This document shows positions 1,057 through 64,000 of a stretch of 64,000 nucleotides of DNA, one piece after another; positions within the stretch are counted from its first letter, which is position 1, and each line of letters starts with the position of its first letter. Location of the stretch: NCBI RefSeq assembly GCF_003991155.1, contig NZ_CP031293.1; one strand, 5' to 3'. A program made the translations under genes and the position numbers. Under the pieces are notes generated by a model that saw only the letters and a list, made by a program, of their open reading frames with translations, was not told the DNA's origin and ran no database searches. Source of the stretch: Escherichia coli (GTDB lineage: Bacteria > Pseudomonadota > Gammaproteobacteria > Enterobacterales > Enterobacteriaceae).

Positions 1057-2748
1057 ATGAGATACATCAAATCGATTACACAGCAGAAGCTGAGCTTTTT
1101 GCTTGCAATCTATATTGGCCTTTTTATGAATGGCGCGGTTTTTTACCGCCGCTTCGGCAGCTATGCGCACGATTTTACCGTCTGGAAAGGTATTTCTGCT
1201 GTTGTTGAACTGGCCGCCACCGTACTGGTGACCTTCTTTTTACTGCGTCTTCTTTCGCTGTTTGGCCGCCGCAGCTGGCGTATTCTGGCATCGCTGGTGG
1301 TGCTCTTTTCCGCAGGTGCCAGCTATTACATGACCTTCCTTAATGTAGTCATTGGTTATGGCATCATCGCATCCGTCATGACCACCGATATCGACCTGTC
1401 AAAAGAAGTTGTTGGTCTGAACTTTATTCTCTGGTTAATCGCCGTAAGCGCGTTGCCTCTTATCCTTATCTGGAATAACCGCTGTCGTTACACCTTGCTC
1501 CGACAACTGCGAACCCCAGGGCAGCGTATTCGCAGCCTGGCGGTCGTCGTACTGGCAGGTATTATGGTTTGGGCACCGATTCGTTTGCTGGATATCCAGC
1601 AGAAGAAAGTGGAGAGGGCGACAGGTGTTGATTTGCCGAGTTATGGCGGCGTCGTCGCGAACTCTTATCTGCCATCAAACTGGCTTTCGGCATTAGGTCT
1701 TTATGCCTGGGCGCGGGTCGATGAATCTTCCGATAACAATTCTCTCCTTAACCCTGCGAAGAAGTTTACGTACCAGGCTCCACAAAACGTTGATGATACA
1801 TATGTCGTTTTCATTATTGGTGAAACCACGCGCTGGGATCATATGGGCATTTTCGGCTATGAACGCAATACCACACCGAAACTGGCTCAGGAGAAAAATC
1901 TGGCGGCGTTCCGTGGTTACTCCTGTGATACTGCAACCAAACTCTCACTGCGTTGCATGTTTGTACGTCAGGGTGGAGCAGAAGATAATCCGCAGCGCAC
2001 ATTAAAAGAACAGAACATTTTCGCGGTATTGAAGCAGTTAGGATTCAGTTCTGATCTCTACGCTATGCAAAGCGAAATGTGGTTCTACAGCAATACGATG
2101 GCGGACAACATTGCTTATCGTGAGCAGATTGGTGCGGAGCCACGTAACCGTGGCAAACCGGTAGATGATATGTTGCTGGTAGACGAAATGCAGCAGTCGC
2201 TGGGGCGCAACCCGGATGGTAAGCATCTGATCATTCTGCATACCAAAGGCTCACACTTTAACTACACCCAGCGTTACCCGCGCAGCTTTGCGCAGTGGAA
2301 GCCGGAATGTATTGGTGTTGATAGCGGCTGTACCAAAGCGCAGATGATCAACTCATACGACAACTCGGTGACCTATGTGGATCACTTTATTTCCAGCGTG
2401 ATTGATCAGGTTCGCAATAAGAAAGCGATTGTGTTCTATGCAGCTGACCACGGTGAGTCAATTAATGAACGCGAGCACCTGCACGGCACGCCGCGTGAAC
2501 TGGCACCGCCGGAACAGTTCCGTGTGCCGATGATGGTCTGGATGTCGGATAAATATCTGGAAAATCCGGTCAATGCGCAGGCATTTGCGCAGCTGAAAAA
2601 AGAAGCCGACATGAAAGTGCCACGCCGTCACGTAGAGCTGTACGACACCATCATGGGGTGTCTTGGCTATACTTCACCTGATGGTGGAATTAACGAAAAC
2701 AACAACTGGTGTCACATCCCGCAGGCAAAAGAGGCAGCGGCTAACTAA
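1057..2748 (+). CDS. eptB: Kdo2-lipid A phosphoethanolamine transferase EptB
   Basis: ORF 1024..2748; the product from the ATG at 1057 ([16 protein letters not shown]...) matches the recalled 563-aa EptB N-terminus; sulfatase-like C-terminal domain. Confidence 0.9.
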
Positions 2749-2798
2749 GAGGTCTGCTGACTTTCTCGCCGATCAAAAGGCATTTTGCTATTAAGGGA

Positions 2799-2827
2799 TT
2801 GACGAGGGCGTATCTGCGCAGTAAGAT
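2799..2827 (+). promoter_or_regulatory. Putative sigma70 promoter of proK (TTGACG, 17-bp spacer, TAAGAT, GC-rich discriminator)
   Basis: Hexamers read directly from the sequence about 12 bp upstream of the mature tRNA 5' end. Confidence 0.45.
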
Positions 2828-2839
2828 GCGCCCCGCATT

Positions 2840-2916
<77 letters not shown>

Positions 2917-2925
2917 AATTCGAAA

Positions 2926-2952
2926 AGCCTGCTCAACGAGCAGGCTTTTTTG
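2926..2952 (+). terminator. Rho-independent terminator after proK
   Basis: AGCCTGCTC-AAC-GAGCAGGCT hairpin followed by TTTTTT. Confidence 0.8.
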
Positions 2953-3006
2953 CATCTGTAACTCATGAGGAAGAGAACCTCCGGGGGCGGGGAGGTTCGA
3001 CTCGAC

Positions 3007-3092
3007 GTAGGCCTGATAAGACGCGCCAGCGTCGCATCAGGCAAATGTACCGGCCCATTGTCGGATGCGGCGCGACCGCCTTATCCGATCTA
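3007..3092. repeat. Pair of REP (repetitive extragenic palindromic) elements
   Basis: GTAGGCCTGATAAGACGCGCCAGCGTCGCATCAGGC and GTCGGATGCGGCGCGACCGCCTTATCCGATCTAC match the REP consensus. Confidence 0.7.
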
Positions 3093-9348: not shown

Positions 9349-9377
9349 CAAAACCGGGGCCGTGCGCTCCGGTTTAC
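9349..9377. terminator. Hairpin between convergent dppF and yhjV (probable bidirectional terminator)
   Basis: AAACCGG...CCGGTTT stem-loop in the 29-bp gap, overlapping the yhjV stop codon. Confidence 0.55.
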
Positions 9378-10645
9378 TCAATCAGCTTCAACAGTGGCGA
9401 CAAGCATAGCAAAATGCCGTAAAGCAGAATCAGCCAGGCTTTAAATCCGCGAAGTTTTTCCAGTTGTGCGACTTTATAGATCAGGAAAAACGGAATGAGG
9501 CACGACACAATGCCATATAACGGGCTTCCCAACTGAAAGAACACCAGCACCGATACACGAAACGAAACCCAAATCGTCAACGTAATGACGATAAAAGCGC
9601 AGATCGCCAGAGTCAGCACGCGTGAATTAATTTTCCTGGTATCAATAATTCGGCTTAACAGATTGAGAATAATGCCTTTAATGGCCTCGTGGAAACCGAG
9701 ATAAATGCCAAAGAATGCGGTCAGTACGGCAAAGATATTCAGCACCGTAGAGGTGATATGAATGATATGCCCAGGGATCACCTGCGCGGCCAGTGCCAGT
9801 GCCGAGATATTTTGTTCAAAGGCAGAAACGGCTTCTTCGTGGCTAATTGAGAAGGTAAACGAAAAGGCAAAAAACAGGATCACCGCGATGAGCGTGACAT
9901 AACTAATTCGGTGGGTACGCAGCGCGAGCCGGGTTGCCAGTACTTTATCCGCTTCCCGTTTACGATAGGCAATATTCATTGGGTTAAGTACCTGAATAAA
10001 TACCGCAGAAAAGAAGCAAAAGGGAATGGTAAGCAGGACATCGCGGAAAAAGACGGAGGCTTGCGGGAAGGCGGTTATATTGGCGAAATTCCAGTGCGGG
10101 ATCATCGCAAAACCGAACACGACGATAATCCCTACTTTGACCACCACCATTGGCCCGGAAATCTTAAACAGTAATCGTTCACCACCAGACGCAATTGCCA
10201 CCAGTACGGCGAAAATGGCGACTTTATAAAGTAGAGATTGTGAAAGATCGGCATCGGTTAAACCGAAGGTTTTCAGGTACGAGGCGCTGTCGAAAACCAC
10301 GGAGAGAGAGTAGATAAAAATCCCGTGGATAATCATCAAAAAGTAGATAACCCCGAGGAAAATTCCCCAGTTCTTCCCCAGGTAATGACTGATAATATCG
10401 GTATAGTCATTACAGGAATCGCTTTTAGAAAGGGTTTTTAAATAAATGTCCTGCACTACCCAGGTGGCAGGATAAGCAATGATCGCTGCGGTAATAAATA
10501 CCCAAATTCCCTTCAAGCCAATTTGTACTGGCATCAGCACGGTTCCGGCACCAATCGCCATGCCTATGCATAATAAAACCCAGCCGAAGTCGTAGCGTGT
10601 AAACGGCAATTTCTGATCGTGTTTCGGTAGTGTGTTGTGCTGCAT
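9374..10645 (-). CDS. yhjV: Putative amino-acid transporter YhjV (HAAAP family)
   Basis: ORF 9374..10708; start placed at the internal ATG giving [11 protein letters not shown]... (423 aa), matching the recalled K-12 N-terminus; polytopic membrane protein. Confidence 0.85.
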
Positions 10646-11002
10646 AAAGTCCTGTCCAGAAAGAAGTCGGCCTCGCAAAAATGAATAAACCCAGTTTCTC
10701 TTGCGCAACAGGTGGAGAAGTCGAATACGCAGTATGTAAAAAATGAGGCAACAGATTCACTGGGGAGGTCGCGAGGAGGCGCAATTCTACAAAATTGCGC
10801 ATTTCACTACCAGTCTGGAGTCAGCCCGGATATGAACTGCAACTATTGCAAATAAAGAAATTAAGCTGGAATGCATCACGCAATGAGGAAGATTGCCGGG
10901 TGCTGACGGTAAAAAGCAATCGTAGAATCAGCGGCAAGCCGGAAAGGTTCCGGTGAGGCGCAATGTTGCGGGGGCTTAATCCCTGGTGGCATTGGTTGCT
11001 GG

Positions 11003-11072
11003 AGAGAGAAAACCCCCGCACGTTGCAGGTATGCACCTGACAACATCACGGGGGCTAATCTTGAACCTAGAC
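11003..11072 (-). ncRNA. rdlD: Rdl antisense antitoxin RNA, copy 1
   Basis: Minus-strand sequence GTCTAGGTTCAAGATTAGCCCCCGTGATGTTGTCAGG...CGTGCGGGGGTTTTCTCT matches the recalled RdlD sequence and ends in a terminator hairpin; ends approximate. Confidence 0.6.
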
Positions 11073-11120
11073 CACTCAAGAATAGCCGCGAAACGTTGTC
11101 ATTACAACACAGGCGGCTAT

Positions 11121-11228
11121 ATGACGCTCGCAGAACTGGGCATGGCCTTCTGGCATGATTTAGCGGCTCCGGTCATTGCTGGCATTCTTGCCAGCATGAT
11201 CGTGAACTGGCTGAACAAGCGGAAGTAA
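11121..11228 (+). CDS. ldrD: Type I toxin Ldr (35 aa: MTLAELGMAFWHDLAAPVIAGILASMIVNWLNKRK), copy 1
   Basis: 35-codon ORF at the 3' end of the repeat; peptide matches the recalled Ldr family sequence. Confidence 0.85.
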   Translation: MTLAELGMAFWHDLAAPVIAGILASMIVNWLNKRK

Positions 11229-11278
11229 CGTGTCAGACGGGCGTCAGGCTGCGGTAATGGCAATTTGCGCCCGGACCA

Positions 11279-11310
11279 GGCCGCAGGGATAAAACTCTGC
11301 GGCCTTTTTC
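11279..11310 (+). terminator. Rho-independent terminator of ldr copy 1
   Basis: GGCCGCAG / CTGCGGCC stem followed by TTTTT. Confidence 0.7.
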
Positions 11311-11485
11311 GTAAGAAAAAGGCAACGGTTGCAAGCGGATAATATTCTGCGGAATGGACAGCACAGAGTGAAGAAGTGACGGATTCCGGAACAGAAAAAC
11401 AGTCGTAGAATCAGCGGCAAGCCGGAAAGGTTCCGGTGAGGCGCAATGTTGCGGGGGCTTTATCCCTGGTGGCATTGGTTGCTGG

Positions 11486-11555
11486 AGAGAGAAAACCCCC
11501 GCACGTTGCAGTTATGCACCTGACAACACCACGGGGGCTAATCTTGACTCTAGAC
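11486..11555 (-). ncRNA. Rdl antisense antitoxin RNA, copy 2
   Basis: Paralogous to copy 1 with a few substitutions; ends approximate. Confidence 0.6.
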
Positions 11556-11603
11556 CACTCAAGAATAGCCGCGAAACGTTGTCATTACAACTCAGGCGGC
11601 TAT

Positions 11604-11711
11604 ATGACGCTCGCAGAGCTGGGCATGGCCTTCTGGCATGATTTAGCGGCTCCGGTCATTGCTGGCATTCTTGCCAGCATGATCGTGAACTGGCTGAACA
11701 AGCGGAAGTAA
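11604..11711 (+). CDS. Type I toxin Ldr, copy 2 (identical peptide)
   Basis: 35-codon ORF identical in amino-acid sequence to copy 1, with one synonymous change. Confidence 0.85.
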   Translation: MTLAELGMAFWHDLAAPVIAGILASMIVNWLNKRK

Positions 11712-11761
11712 CGTGTCAGACGGGCGTCAGGCTGCCGTAATGGCAAGTTGCGCCCGGATCA

Positions 11762-11792
11762 GGCCGCAGGGGTGAAACTCTGCGGCCTTTTT
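11762..11792 (+). terminator. Rho-independent terminator of ldr copy 2
   Basis: Same hairpin plus T-run as copy 1. Confidence 0.7.
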
Positions 11793-11797
11793 CGTTC

Positions 11798-13477
11798 TTA
11801 TTGCGGGTAAGGCACCCAGTCGCCGCCGTTCAGGCGAACGTACGGTTTATCCTGGTATTGAATAACTACTGCATTTGAGTTCTCGGAGACCGGTGCTGTT
11901 TGTGGCAACCCACTGGTGAGTTTTTTCCAGTCAACATTGTCTTCGGAGAAAATCTTGCCATCAAGAACGCGAACCACCAGATCGGAGATAGCCAAGAAGC
12001 TGCTCGGTTGGTCGATGACAATCGGTGCCCCCTGATGTGGTGCCTTCATGCCGAAGAATTTCACCCCAACGGGGACGTCTGTGATAGACGGGCTAGGGAT
12101 ATCACGTAGGCCAGATACCTGCATTCTGTCGCCCTTCAGCGCGCCGCCGTGTTCCGGCACCACGACCACCATCACTTTACGACCCGATTTCTCCAGTTCA
12201 GTAAAGAAGGCGTCCAGTTCATCAAAGAATTTCTGCGCCCGCGCTTTGTAATCCGCTGTTTTGCTGACGCCCGGATAATGGTTGCCGTCATGCAGTGGAA
12301 GCGTGTTGTAGAACGTGGCACTACGGCTGTTTTTATCTTTTTCGGTAACGTCCAGCCAGCGGTTAAGCACGGCGGTATCGTCATAAACCGGCGAACCATC
12401 AAAGCCCAGCAAAACAACCGGCAGATTTGTTTGATCCATCAATTCGGTCTGCATGCCGCCATTTTCGCGAACTTCTTTCAAAAAACCGCCGAACTGGCCG
12501 TTATGTCCCATCATCAGGTGCTGGGTAAAGCCCAGTTTCGACAGGTTATCAAACAGATAGCAGTCGTTATTTGCCGGTTGATACAGATTAGTGTGCGAAG
12601 TCTGCCCGCAGCTGGCGCGCAGTAAACGGATCGCCGCCGGGCCACTGTAGGAGGTGGCGGAGTTAAAGTTCTTGAACTCAATATCGAAATGCGACCACAG
12701 CGGATGCGACATCAACCCGGCGGCTTCAATATCCGACCAGGAAAGCGAACAGATATTAATCACCAGTAGTTCAAATGGCTGAGCATCAGCGGGCAGCGAA
12801 GACGGGAAGATTGATTTACGTTTCGCCTCCGCGTTATAGAAATTATTCAGCCAGGCGTTAAGGTTCGCCGTTGTTGGCGGTGCAGTTTGTGCGGGCATAT
12901 CACCCACTACCGGTGCGCCACCCGTCGCCGCAACGGTTGCCGCTGCGTTACCGCCCGTCGTTGTTACAGTGGTCGTTGGTTGACCGGCTGGCCACAAGGA
13001 GAAACTTGGTCCCGCCAGGGTAAGTACGTTCAGCCATAGCAGAATGGCAACCACAAAAACGGTAATGCGAATCCATTGTGACAGGAATAACCAGGCCACT
13101 AATAAAACAAAAATGGCCCCAATCATCTGCCAGTTAATAAAGCGTGTGACAAGGTCGATTAAATAATCGGTACTGAACCCCGCCACCTGCGAACCCTGGC
13201 TCATTATGCTTTCCGGGCCAGGCAACCAGGTGTCATGCCAGAACAAAGCAAAGCCGATCGGCAGGGCAATCCAGTGGCGTAAGCGATGCAGGCTGTAGCG
13301 CGGAATGGGCATCAGCAGAAACGCGGCAAACACCAGATTGAGGAGCGGATGGAAGTTAAGATATCCCGCCCACAACAGGCCGAACTTAACCAGAAAATAG
13401 AAGTTCCAGCCGGAAAGGCCGCGCCAGTATTGCCAGAGGGAAGAAGGCATGGCGGTATTTTGCGTAAATTGAGTCAT
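11798..13477 (-). CDS. bcsG: Cellulose phosphoethanolamine transferase BcsG
   Basis: 559-aa ORF with N-terminal transmembrane segments and a sulfatase-like domain; last gene of bcsEFG. Confidence 0.95.
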
Positions 13478-47497: not shown

Positions 47498-47603
47498 AAA
47501 AAAAACCCGGCATAGGGGACCGGGAAGAGGATAGTCTGCCGTCTCCAGACTAATAAACCGTTATAACACTCCCTGTTGGCACGGGAAACTTTGTGCTCTC
47601 AGT
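47498..47603 (-). ncRNA. gadY: GadY small RNA
   Basis: Minus-strand sequence ACTGAGAGCACAAAGTTTCCCGTGCCAACAGGGAGTGTTATAACGG...CCTATGCCGGGTTTTTTTT matches the recalled GadY sequence and ends in a terminator. Confidence 0.8.
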
Positions 47604-47849
47604 AAGTTAAATATAACTTTTACTGGAAATAAGATCAGCCATTTTTTTATAAACATAAGCTATACGCTGTGCGAAAATATATTCGTGTTGCATTTACTTA
47701 TTGTCAATTAACTGTTATGCAAAACTACTTTGTGGATAAATTTTGGTCCTACCAAATCTGGCAGTTTTTGCGCTAAGAAACAGTCTGGCATCATTTCATT
47801 AGTATACTGAAATTGAAATAATCGCAGTAATGAAATATAAGGGATAGTC

Positions 47850-53236: not shown

Positions 53237-53574
53237 TTTAGTCCCTGAAAATTCTTGAGAAATAACGGTTCTTTAAATTGCGCGCGAGGAGAGATATGAG
53301 GGATTTACAGACCAGCGGCATAGTGGGGTTGTCAGCCAGTAAGATGGGATGCAAGCACAGTGATCGACATGGTGAGGTCAACGACAAAAAAAATGTTGCC
53401 GTTCTGCCAACAGTTTCTGCCAGCATTCGGGCAACGAAGGGTTCTACTGGTGGATACACATACCAGGGGAATAAAGTCGTTTTCGTCTCTCCTTCAATAA
53501 TCACCGGGGGTATTGAAATCAGCATCTGCATCCCTCGTCATGCCAGCCATCAATTTCAGTTGCTTATGTCCTTA

Positions 53575-63124: not shown

Positions 63125-63156
63125 AGCATTTTTTATTTTCCTCATGGAGAATCGCT
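63125..63156 (+). promoter_or_regulatory. Candidate FourU-type RNA thermometer around the chuA Shine-Dalgarno
   Basis: U-runs (TTTTTTATTTTCC) directly 5' of CATGGAGA (the SD) could pair with it. A FourU thermometer in the shuA/chuA leader is established knowledge; the fold was not computed. Confidence 0.35.
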
Positions 63157-64000
63157 ATGTCACGTCCGCAATTTACCTCGTTGCGTTTGAGTTTGTTGGC
63201 TTTGGCTGTTTCTGCCACCTTGCCAACATTTGCTTTTGCTACTGAAACCATGACCGTTACGGCAACCGGGAATGCACGTAGTTCCTTCGAAGCGCCTATG
63301 ATGGTCAGCGTTATCGACACTTCCGCTCCTGAAAATCAAACGGCTACTTCAGCCACCGATCTGCTGCGTCATGTTCCTGGAATTACTCTTGATGGTACCG
63401 GACGAACCAACGGTCAGGATGTAAATATGCGTGGCTATGATCATCGCGGCGTGCTGGTTCTTGTCGATGGTGTTCGCCAGGGAACGGATACCGGACACCT
63501 GAATGGCACTTTTCTCGATCCGGCGCTGATCAAGCGTGTTGAGATTGTTCGCGGACCTTCAGCATTACTGTATGGCAGTGGCGCGCTGGGTGGAGTGATC
63601 TCCTACGATACGGTCGATGCAAAAGATTTATTGCAGGAAGGACAACGCAGTGGTTTTCGTGTCTTTGGTACTGGCGGCACGGGGGACCATAGCCTGGGAT
63701 TAGGCGCGAGCGCGTTTGGGCGAACTGAAAATCTGGATGGTATTGTGGCCTGGTCCAGTCGCGATCGGGGTGATTTACGCCAGAGCAATGGTGAAACCGC
63801 GCCGAATGACGAGTCCATTAATAACATGCTGGCGAAAGGGACCTGGCAAATTGATTCAGCCCAGTCTCTGAGCGGTTTAGTGCGTTACTACAACAACGAC
63901 GCGCGTGAACCAAAAAATCCGCAGACTGTTGAGGCTTCTGATAGCAGCAACCCGATGGTTGATCGTTCAACAATTCAACGCGATGCGCAGCTTTCTTATA
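63157..64000 (+). CDS. chuA: TonB-dependent outer-membrane haem receptor ChuA (ShuA), 5' portion; continues beyond the window
   Basis: Open frame from the ATG at 63157 (MSRPQFTSLRLSLLALAVSATLPTFAFA, TonB box ETMTVTA) to the window edge without a stop; SD GGAG 7 nt upstream. Confidence 0.9.
   Translation, partial: MSRPQFTSLRLSLLALAVSATLPTFAFATETMTVTATGNARSSFEAPMMVSVIDTSAPENQTATSATDLLRHVPGITLDGTGRTNGQDVNMRGYDHRGVLVLVDGVRQGTDTGHLNGTFLDPALIKRVEIVRGPSALLYGSGALGGVISYDTVDAKDLLQEGQRSGFRVFGTGGTGDHSLGLGASAFGRTENLDGIVAWSSRDRGDLRQSNGETAPNDESINNMLAKGTWQIDSAQSLSGLVRYYNNDAREPKNPQTVEASDSSNPMVDRSTIQRDAQLSY

What the first reader, a model, noticed from the sequence alone, without database searches (positions are those of the whole stretch)
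10919..11795. Tandem duplication of the ldr/rdl type I toxin-antitoxin unit where K-12 has a single copy
Two head-to-tail repeats of about 390 bp (10919..11312 and 11404..11795) each carry a 35-codon ldr toxin ORF (11121..11228 and 11604..11711), an antisense rdl RNA and a terminator, separated by about 90 bp of unique sequence. The yhjV-bcsG gap is about 1.15 kb here against roughly 0.67 kb as I recall it in K-12, consistent with one extra unit. Tandem LDR arrays are known at the ldrABC locus in K-12, so this locus appears able to expand and contract by unequal recombination.
Basis: partly seen in the sequence, partly recalled or inferred. Interest (0 to 1): 0.5.

Follow-up and report, generated by a model that had tools for sequence, protein, structure and literature searches.

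The report
Two-unit ldrD/rdlD toxin-antitoxin array
The yhjV-bcsG gap of this E. coli carries two tandem copies of the well-known Ldr/Rdl small-toxin/antisense-RNA module, an ordinary state of a locus holding one to five copies across strains, and K-12's single copy is the shrunken form.

Summary
Two 393-bp cores (10920..11312 and 11403..11795) differ at 12 positions and are separated by a 90-bp spacer, giving a 483-bp period. Each core carries a 35-codon Ldr ORF (Pfam Ldr_toxin, 93 bits), an Rfam rdlD match on the opposite strand (90 and 79 bits) and a terminator-like hairpin. K-12 records carry exactly one unit, in a 669-bp gap against 1152 bp here.

The framing needs reversing. 3299 of 5426 complete E. 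coli genomes (61%) hold at least one inter-unit spacer, so they have two or more units, and some have up to five. An even sample gave 23, 8, 16 and 10 genomes with 1, 2, 3 and 4 units.

The window's two units are old paralogues, not a fresh duplicate. Each is closer to positional counterparts in other strains than to its neighbour. Homologous two-unit arrays occur in two other Escherichia species-level representatives.

K-12's single unit is identical to the third unit of the E. coli B three-unit array, and the flanks are identical too. K-12 is therefore a recent 966-bp collapse.

RefSeq annotates these arrays routinely, and lineage-specific Ldr duplication was published in 2010. The finding is real, ordinary and of low novelty.

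The parts
9374..10645 (-). yhjV (aromatic amino acid transporter family), left flank of the array
   Evidence: RefSeq annotation of the identical region in NZ_CP029747.1, mapped to the window. The ORF is and tblastn.
10838..10919 (+). Leader of unit 1, a diverged homologue of the inter-unit spacer
   Evidence: local alignment of 10838-10914 with the spacer scores 20, against a shuffle mean of 11.1 and maximum of 18; the orthologous upstream regions of other Escherichia are 89-96% identical to it and about 60% identical to the spacer.
10920..11312 (+). Unit 1 core (393 bp): ldr mRNA region with 5' UTR, ORF and terminator
   Evidence: 97% identical to 11403..11795. The nearest relatives are first-position units of other arrays.
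10963..11040 (+). 25-codon leader ORF in the ldr 5' UTR (candidate for the proposed ldrX), unit 1
   Evidence: The N-terminal MLRGL..LLERENPRTL is conserved across Escherichia, Citrobacter, Kluyvera, Salmonella and Pseudocitrobacter. A GAGG lies 4 nt upstream. Coding status is not established, because a +1 G indel in some units shifts the frame.
11007..11072 (-). rdl antisense antitoxin RNA, copy 1
   Evidence: Rfam RF01813 rdlD, 90.4 bits against a gathering score of 50, full length 1-66. It folds as a hairpin plus U-tail, -31.7 kcal/mol, z = -4.9. A terminator-like site lies on the minus strand.
11121..11228 (+). ldr toxin ORF, copy 1 (35 aa, equal to WP_001295224.1)
   Evidence: Pfam PF13940 Ldr_toxin, 93.2 bits, E = 9.5e-27.
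11278..11310 (+). Intrinsic-terminator-like hairpin plus T-run ending unit 1
   Evidence: 11 pairs, 8 of them G-C, then TTTTT.
11313..11402 (+). 90-bp inter-unit spacer, the marker of a multi-unit array
   Evidence: It is absent from single-unit K-12 (94% coverage in 2 pieces). It is present in 3299 of 5426 genomes.
11403..11795 (+). Unit 2 core (393 bp)
   Evidence: The nearest relatives are the K-12 single unit and the last units of three-unit arrays, at 9 differences.
11446..11523 (+). 25-codon leader ORF (ldrX candidate), unit 2
11490..11555 (-). rdl antisense antitoxin RNA, copy 2. It differs from copy 1 at 4 of 66 positions, and one change breaks an apical stem pair.
   Evidence: Rfam rdlD 78.7 bits. 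Fold -26.3 kcal/mol, z = -3.3.
11604..11711 (+). ldr toxin ORF, copy 2. The peptide is identical, with one synonymous difference from copy 1.
11761..11793 (+). Intrinsic-terminator-like hairpin plus T-run ending unit 2
11798..13477 (-). bcsG (cellulose biosynthesis), right flank; intact here
   Evidence: It is annotated as bcsG in related records.

Best explanation
This is a two-unit allele of the LDR-D (ldrD/rdlD) type I toxin-antitoxin array that sits between yhjV and bcsG in E. coli and its relatives. Each 483-bp period consists of a leader or spacer of about 90 bp and a 393-bp core. From what is established for K-12 LDR-D, each period is expected to make two transcripts. One is a long-leader mRNA for a 35-aa membrane toxin. 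The other is a 66-nt antisense RNA, Rdl, transcribed from the opposite strand of the 5' UTR, which blocks toxin synthesis. The array is old, and its units are diverged paralogues. Copy number moves in whole 483-bp steps by unequal homologous recombination between units, which also produces mosaic units. The window's state (a first-type unit plus a last-type unit) is one common outcome. K-12's single unit is a recent collapse of a B-like three-unit array. Shown here: the anatomy, family membership by sequence and structure, the population distribution, unit relationships and the K-12/B comparison. Inferred: expression of both units, toxicity, antisense control and the recombination mechanism.
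For: Anatomy is given.

Locus identity and annotation come, where both ORFs are annotated as 'type I toxin-antitoxin system toxin Ldr family protein' between yhjV and bcsG.

For copy number, one search used a flank-only query on rows taken at even steps down the ranking, and converted the record spans to unit numbers. With H41 and H97 resolved by hand, the counts were 23, 8, 16 and 10 chromosomes with 1, 2, 3 and 4 units, all in 483/484-bp steps. One search found 3299 of 5426 genomes with at least one spacer, 6990 chromosomal spacers in total and at most 4 per genome.

On age, the units differ at 12 of 393 positions. Unit 1 is 6 differences from the first unit of a four-unit array. Unit 2 is 9 differences from the K-12 unit and from the last units of three-unit arrays. 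The spacer is 78-83% conserved in the two-unit arrays of Escherichia sp. E1V33 and E. coli SCPM-O-B-8794, both GTDB species representatives.

On contraction, the K-12 unit is 100% identical to unit 3 of B strain Nico21(DE3), with 0 differences in 400 nt on each side. B units 1 and 2 differ from unit 3 by 11 and 20 substitutions, so they cannot be recent duplicates of it.

The mechanism of the module (LdrD toxic when overproduced, RdlD neutralising, antisense to the 5' UTR) is as summarised from Kawano et al. 2002 in PMC4147584.
Against: No expression data exist for this strain. The simple sigma-70 scan found no promoter-like site in either unit, so I could not place the ldr or rdl promoters. 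The sequence upstream of the two cores is only about 60% alike, so the units may not be expressed equally.

The copy-number figures come from RefSeq complete genomes, which over-represent laboratory K-12 and B derivatives, O157:H7 and clinical clones. They are not population frequencies.

The specificity of the spacer query to this locus is inferred, not checked genome by genome. It rests on two points: the share of genomes without a spacer (39%) matches the single-unit share of the sample (40%), and the LdrA-type junctions in L056 did not match.

Unequal crossing-over is inferred from step size and mosaicism. Replication slippage or gene conversion would leave similar traces.
Confidence: 0.9

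Rival explanations
1. A recent, strain-specific tandem duplication of a single K-12-like ldrD unit, the reading implied by the finding's title.
For: K-12 has one unit and the window has two, differing by exactly one 483-bp period. The two toxin peptides are identical.
Against: The units differ at 12 of 393 positions (3.1%). That exceeds the 1.9% flank divergence between the window and K-12. Each unit is closer to units in other genomes than to its neighbour. The spacer has diverged to about 60% identity from its source sequence. Homologous two-unit arrays exist in other Escherichia species-level representatives. 61% of complete genomes are multi-unit.
Confidence: 0.04
2. An assembly artefact, meaning a false expansion of a repeat.
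For: Tandem repeats of about 0.5 kb are a known source of assembly error. One published study suspected assembly error at the other ldr locus (PMC7232551). An E. albertii short-read contig breaks inside this unit.
Against: The two units are distinguishable at 12 sites plus a spacer. An independent complete genome (NZ_CP029747.1) has the identical 1301-bp sequence. Thousands of complete genomes carry 2-5 units with consistent spacing. No reads are available to test this directly.
Confidence: 0.01
3. The array is kept multi-unit because the units are functionally distinct cognate pairs. Divergence concentrated in the Rdl/5'-UTR pairing region would let each Rdl control mainly its own ldr mRNA, as with Sib/Ibs, so copy number and unit content tune toxin regulation. 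This rival concerns why the array persists, not what it is.
For: Across 26 units from 11 genomes, variable columns are enriched in the 66-nt rdl region: 15 of 66 against 38 of 329 elsewhere (Fisher p = 0.027). At least four rdl-region haplotypes recur and co-occur within arrays. The window's two Rdl differ at 4 of 66 positions, two of them in the 5' single-stranded tail. Cognate-only repression is documented for the tandem Sib/Ibs family (PMC2943612, abstract).
Against: The enrichment is weak and the units are not independent samples. Four mismatches in 66 nt may not prevent cross-pairing. The toxins are nearly identical, so no toxin diversification is evident. 39% of genomes manage with one unit. 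No experiment addresses Rdl specificity.
Confidence: 0.2

Closest known systems
LDR-D (ldrD/rdlD) of E. coli K-12 (Kawano et al. 2002, as summarised in PMC4147584)
   Same: It occupies the same locus (yhjV-bcsG) with the same architecture. The toxin differs by one residue (L3 here, F3 in K-12). Rfam rdlD matches in full. Unit 2 differs from the K-12 unit at 9 of 393 positions.
   Different: There are two units instead of one, joined by a 90-bp spacer that K-12 lacks. K-12's state is a 966-bp contraction of a B-like three-unit array.
LDR-A/B/C tandem array (ldrABC/rdlABC) at chaA-kdsA in K-12
   Same: It is a tandem head-to-tail array of Ldr/Rdl units in one intergenic region. Copy number also varies between strains at that locus (PMC7232551).
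   Different: It sits at a different locus and belongs to a different toxin subgroup (MTLAQFAM.FWHDLAAPILAGIITAAIV.WWRNRK). The period is about 535-539 bp against 483 bp here. Fozo 2010 places the LdrD and LdrB groups as an old duplication in enterobacteria.
Other tandemly repeated chromosomal type I loci: ibs/sib and zor/orz
   Same: These are small hydrophobic toxins with cis-antisense RNAs, repeated in one intergenic region. For zor/orz, copy number differs between E. coli strains: 0.5 to 4 copies over 2212 genomes (PMC11264685).
   Different: The toxin families are different. Sib overlaps the whole ORF, whereas Rdl covers only the 5' UTR (PMC8594479). In the library searched I found no comparable published genome-wide survey of the ldrD locus.
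hok/sok
   Same: It has a long-leader toxin mRNA with an antisense RNA against the leader. Both have a leader ORF: mok is established for hok/sok, and ldrX is proposed for ldr/rdl (PMC4147584, PMC8594479). Weak Rfam 'sok' matches fall on the ldr leader (26.5 and 22.3 bits).
   Different: Those matches are far below the gathering score of 59. The toxin family is different. ldrX-dependent control of ldr has not been demonstrated.

Membership tests
Ldr/Rdl (LDR) type I toxin-antitoxin | A 35-aa hydrophobic toxin of the Ldr family | tested here: met
   Pfam PF13940 Ldr_toxin, 93.2 bits against a cutoff of 27, covering 1-35 of 35. Both ORFs are identical to RefSeq WP_001295224.1. NCBIfam has no model that matches.
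Ldr/Rdl (LDR) type I toxin-antitoxin | A cis-encoded antisense RNA of about 60-66 nt opposite the 5' UTR that does not overlap the ORF or its ribosome-binding site | tested here: met
   Rfam rdlD at 90.4 and 78.7 bits against a gathering score of 50, both full length, on the minus strand. Each ends 49 nt upstream of its ldr ATG. Both fold as a hairpin with a U-tail.
Ldr/Rdl (LDR) type I toxin-antitoxin | A toxin mRNA ending at an intrinsic terminator just after the ORF | tested here: met
   Terminator-like hairpins at 11278-11305 and 11761-11788, each followed by a T-run. This is a consensus match only.
Ldr/Rdl (LDR) type I toxin-antitoxin | Own promoters for ldr and rdl in each unit | tested here: inconclusive
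   The sigma-70 consensus scan found none in 10640-11830. By eye, TTGTAA-17-TATTCT lies upstream of each rdl 5' end, matching 8 of 12 positions and so below the tool's threshold. The ldr transcription start was not located.
Ldr/Rdl (LDR) type I toxin-antitoxin | Toxin overproduction kills or arrests cells, and the cognate Rdl relieves it | not testable with these tools
   This is known for K-12 LdrD/RdlD (PMC4147584). The toxin here differs from K-12 LdrD by one residue.
Ldr/Rdl (LDR) type I toxin-antitoxin | Organisation as long direct repeats of about 0.5 kb | tested here: met
   A 483-bp period with two units at 97% identity over 393 bp.
LDR-D locus (orthologue of K-12 ldrD) | Position between yhjV and bcsG, with the toxin in the LdrD group (..AFWHDLAAPVIAGILAS..NWLNKRK) | tested here: met
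   Flanking genes. Peptide comparison.
hok/sok-like leader-ORF control (proposed ldrX) | A conserved translated leader ORF whose translation is blocked by the antisense RNA | tested here: inconclusive
   An ORF starting 158 nt upstream of ldr, with a GAGG Shine-Dalgarno-like motif and a conserved N-terminus, is present in most units and genera. Its end varies, and a +1 G in some units shifts its frame. Conservation could reflect RNA structure rather than coding. Pfam has no match.

The most novel reading that the evidence does not exclude
The yhjV-bcsG array may be a recombining cassette system rather than passive repeats. It would consist of diverged Ldr/Rdl cognate pairs whose antisense-pairing region is the fastest-changing part. 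Unequal crossing-over would continually reshuffle which Rdl specificities, and how many toxin genes, a strain carries. In rare cases recombination with the ldrABC array on the other side of the chromosome would produce large rearrangements, as the hybrid D-type/A-type array in one BL21(DE3) assembly suggests.
Probability: 0.15. Interest if true: 0.4.

Novelty: already known. Interest (0 to 1): 0.15.

Why it matters
The finding matters mostly as a correction of perspective. The K-12 reference, on which nearly all Ldr/Rdl work was done, carries the contracted form of this locus: one unit, recently collapsed from a B-like three-unit array. Most sequenced E. coli carry two to five diverged units.

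Three practical consequences follow. Deleting 'ldrD' in non-K-12 strains removes only part of the system. Short-read assemblies and qPCR will miscount these genes. Any phenotype ascribed to LdrD dosage should take copy number into account.

It does not reveal a new kind of system.

Tried and rejected
- **Locus search with the peptide:** I replaced it with a degenerate DNA pattern for FWHDLAAP. That pattern misses copies with a changed motif; no E. fergusonii locus was returned, for example.
- **ORF-finding script:** my first regular expression was wrong and found nothing. It was fixed.
- **Promoters:** the scan found none, so the promoters are left unplaced.
- **NCBIfam:** no match for the toxin.
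- **Extended 65-aa Ldr:** I considered an in-frame upstream ATG, 90 nt before ldr, that would give a 65-aa protein. I rejected it as a conserved feature. The ATG is lost in one unit, a stop follows it in two of 26 units, and it is absent in most other genera.
- **Rfam 'sok' matches:** the matches on the ldr leader (26.5 and 22.3 bits against a gathering score of 59) were treated as below threshold.
- **20-nt similarity:** 10766-10785 resembles 10945-10964 (family D2). The upstream-versus-unit alignment did not exceed shuffles (score 12 against a mean of 11.6), so I treat it as chance.
- **Downstream flank:** it shows no homology with the spacer (score 8 against a mean of 7.3).
- **Collapse of a relative's larger array:** I could not show that the window's own two-unit array derives from a close relative's larger array. 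The nearest units differ by 6 and 9 substitutions.

Full report
**What is there**

The sequence between yhjV (minus strand, 9374..10645 by the RefSeq start) and bcsG (minus strand, 11798..13477) is 1152 nt long. It contains two head-to-tail repeats.

The repeat finder reports a direct repeat of at least 300 nt at 97% identity with 483-nt spacing. The pairwise alignment shows uninterrupted similarity from 10920 to 11312 against 11403 to 11795. That is 393 nt with 12 substitutions and no indel. The 90 nt between them (11313..11402) form a spacer.

Each core contains the following:
- A 35-codon ORF at 11121..11228 and 11604..11711. The peptide is identical in both, MTLAELGMAFWHDLAAPVIAGILASMIVNWLNKRK. 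It matches Pfam Ldr_toxin at 93.2 bits.
- A full-length Rfam rdlD match on the opposite strand, 49 nt upstream of the ORF. These lie at 11007..11072 (90.4 bits) and 11490..11555 (78.7 bits), against a gathering score of 50. Both fold as a hairpin with a U-tail.
- A GC-rich hairpin with a T-run after the ORF, at 11278-11305 and 11761-11788.

**The spacer is not unique sequence**

A local alignment places spacer positions 9-87 on 10838-10914, immediately upstream of unit 1. The score is 20, against a mean of 11.1 and a maximum of 18 in 300 shuffles. Global alignments put the identity at about 60%.

The repeating period is therefore 483 bp: a leader of about 90 bp plus a 393-bp core. The leader part has diverged far more than the core. 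No homology was found between the spacer and the bcsG side.

**Comparison with K-12**

K-12 derivatives (C600, DH1, BW25113, MG1655, W3110, JM109) carry one unit. Their gap is 669 nt, exactly 483 nt shorter than here, and they lack the spacer.

**How common is this**

A query made only of the two 2.5-kb flanks lets the record span report the length of the interval. Rows were taken at even steps down the ranking of 5426 matching records. Fifty-eight were chromosomal rows that spanned both flanks, and converted their spans to unit numbers. H41 (an IS4 inside bcsG) and H97 were then classified by hand.

| Units | Rows in the sample |
|---|---|
| 1 | 23 |
| 2 | 8 |
| 3 | 16 |
| 4 | 10 |
| Unclear | 1 |

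All intervals change in steps of 483 or 484 bp.

A second, exact count used the spacer with 20 nt on each side as the query. 3299 of 5426 complete genomes (61%) contain it. There are 6990 chromosomal occurrences and at most four in any one genome, which means five units.

The two estimates agree: the sample gives 40% single-unit genomes and the spacer count gives 39% without a spacer. If every genome has at least one unit, the mean is about 2.3 units.

The window's exact sequence is rare. Only 34-36 records are at least 99% identical, and one complete genome, NZ_CP029747.1, is identical over 1301 bp.

RefSeq complete genomes are a biased sample, so these are not population frequencies. Even so, multi-unit arrays are plainly not an exception.

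**Age and relationships of the units**

I extracted 26 units from the window and ten reference loci and compared them.

- The window's two units differ at 12 positions (3.1%). That is more than the 1.9% flank divergence between the window and K-12.
- Unit 1 is closest to first-position units: 6 differences from the first unit of a four-unit array.
- Unit 2 is closest to the K-12 unit and to the last units of three-unit arrays: 9 differences.
- The table of variable sites shows mosaic units. The 3' ends correlate with position, last against non-last. Several rdl-region haplotypes recur in different combinations.

A degenerate DNA pattern for FWHDLAAP was scanned over one genome per species, followed by tblastn with YhjV and BcsG. 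An ldr gene lies next to bcsG in several Escherichia species, in Citrobacter, in Salmonella enterica subsp. arizonae and diarizonae, in Pseudocitrobacter and in Kluyvera.

Two-unit arrays with a 483/484-bp period occur in Escherichia sp. E1V33 and in E. coli SCPM-O-B-8794, a separate GTDB species representative. Their spacers are 78-83% identical to the window's. Kluyvera sichuanensis has three units next to bcsG with periods of 496 and 532 bp.

The multi-unit organisation therefore predates the diversification of E. coli.

**Direct evidence for contraction**

E. coli B derivative Nico21(DE3) has three units at this locus. The K-12 unit is identical at all 393 positions to B's third unit. The 400 nt on either side of the array are also identical between K-12 and B. 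B's units 1 and 2 differ from unit 3 by 11 and 20 substitutions.

Two diverged units cannot have arisen in B by recent duplication of unit 3. The difference is therefore a 966-bp deletion (two periods) on the K-12 side. Units 1 and 3 are identical over their first 126 positions, which provides the homology for such an exchange.

It also reverses the polarity: K-12 is the derived, contracted state.

**How it most likely works**

By membership in the Ldr/Rdl family, each unit should produce two transcripts. One is a long-leader mRNA for a small membrane toxin. The other is an antisense RNA against that leader which prevents toxin synthesis.

For K-12 LdrD/RdlD, toxicity and its relief by the cognate RNA are established. 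The mechanism is thought to resemble hok/sok, possibly through a leader ORF called ldrX (PMC4147584; PMC8594479).

Neither expression nor toxicity can be tested here, and the consensus scan placed no promoters. The sequence upstream of the two cores is only about 60% alike, so equal expression of the two units is not assured.

**A possible functional twist**

Variable columns among the 26 units are enriched in the 66-nt rdl region: 15 of 66 against 38 of 329 elsewhere (Fisher p = 0.027). The window's two Rdl differ at 4 of 66 positions. Two of these are in the 5' single-stranded tail and one breaks an apical stem pair.

In the tandem Sib/Ibs family, repression is cognate-specific (PMC2943612). 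The same could hold here. The evidence is weak, however, because the units are not independent and the number of mismatches is small.

**What is already known**

- RefSeq annotates both ORFs as Ldr family toxins in this and thousands of other genomes.
- Fozo et al. 2010 listed Ldr counts that differ between strains, for example 10 in Shigella sonnei Ss046 and 4 in O157:H7 EDL933. They inferred an old LdrD/LdrB split followed by lineage-specific duplications and losses, and used tandem repetition of ldr-rdl as a search criterion (PMC2887945).
- A 2024 survey did for zor/orz, tisB and shoB what could be done for ldr, but did not cover ldr (PMC11264685).
- In the library searched I found no paper dedicated to copy number at the ldrD locus.

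**Verdict**

The feature is real, is not an assembly artefact, and is an ordinary allele of a known, annotated, copy-number-variable type I toxin-antitoxin array. The useful residue is the corrected polarity (K-12 is a recent collapse) and the numbers for the locus. Interest is low.

Noticed in passing
L056 (NZ_CP081489.1, BL21(DE3)) 1429..2998: This assembly has a hybrid array. An IS1A is followed by two LdrD-type units, then two LdrA/B/C-type units (MTLAQFAMTFWHDLAAPILAGIITAAIVGWWRNRK), then a tuf pseudogene. yhjV and bcsG are not adjacent. It looks like recombination between the ldrD-locus and ldrABC-locus arrays, or a misassembly. If real, LDR repeats can mediate large chromosomal rearrangements.
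   Followed up: partly
window 10963..11040 and 11446..11523 (+): A 25-codon ORF lies in the ldr 5' UTR, with a GAGG 4 nt upstream. Its N-terminus (MLRGL.P..H.LLERENPRTL) is conserved across Escherichia, Citrobacter, Kluyvera, Salmonella and Pseudocitrobacter and in both the LdrD and LdrA groups. It is probably the proposed ldrX leader. Its 3' end is variable, and a +1 G in some units fuses it to the ldr frame, so the conservation may reflect RNA structure rather than coding.
   Followed up: partly
L012 (E. albertii NBRC 107761 contig NZ_BBMY01000211.1, 2423 nt): The contig ends inside the ldr unit next to bcsG. This is the kind of break a short-read assembler makes at a tandem repeat, so E. 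albertii may also be multi-unit here. Draft assemblies will undercount these genes.
   Followed up: no
L054 (Bacillus sp. EB106-08-02-XG196, 503-nt contig, coverage 0.66): A tiny low-coverage contig in a Bacillus assembly carries an E. coli-type ldrD (MPFAELGMAFWHDLAAPVIAGILASMIVNWLNKRK). It is almost certainly contamination of that assembly.
   Followed up: no
L001 4199..7157 (NZ_CP029747.1) and H41 (NZ_CP115358.1), corresponding to window bcsG 11798..13477: The two records closest to the window at this locus both have bcsG interrupted by an insertion sequence: IS621 in 2016C-3878 and IS4 in CUVET19-1704. The window's bcsG is intact at 559 aa.
   Followed up: no
L057 1179..2805 (NZ_CP124492.1): One river isolate has a three-gene HipA-like type II toxin-antitoxin cassette (HTH protein, HipA N-terminal domain protein, HipA family toxin) inserted between dppF and yhjV. 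It lies next to a three-unit ldr array, and bcsG carries an internal stop.
   Followed up: no
H40 (NZ_CP195449.1, 195-kb plasmid) 122138..122501: An Ldr-family unit about 81% identical to the window's unit lies on a plasmid. 28 plasmid places were found. Fozo 2010 argued that type I loci are not spread horizontally, so plasmid-borne copies may deserve a look.
   Followed up: no
window 47493..47606 (-), 53386..53457 (-), 3010..3090 (-), 2840..2913 (+), 63128..63159 (+): Rfam matches above gathering score elsewhere in the window are GadY, ES205 sRNA, naRNA4, a tRNA and the shuA/chuA 5'-UTR thermoregulator. The last implies a chuA-positive E. coli background.
   Followed up: no
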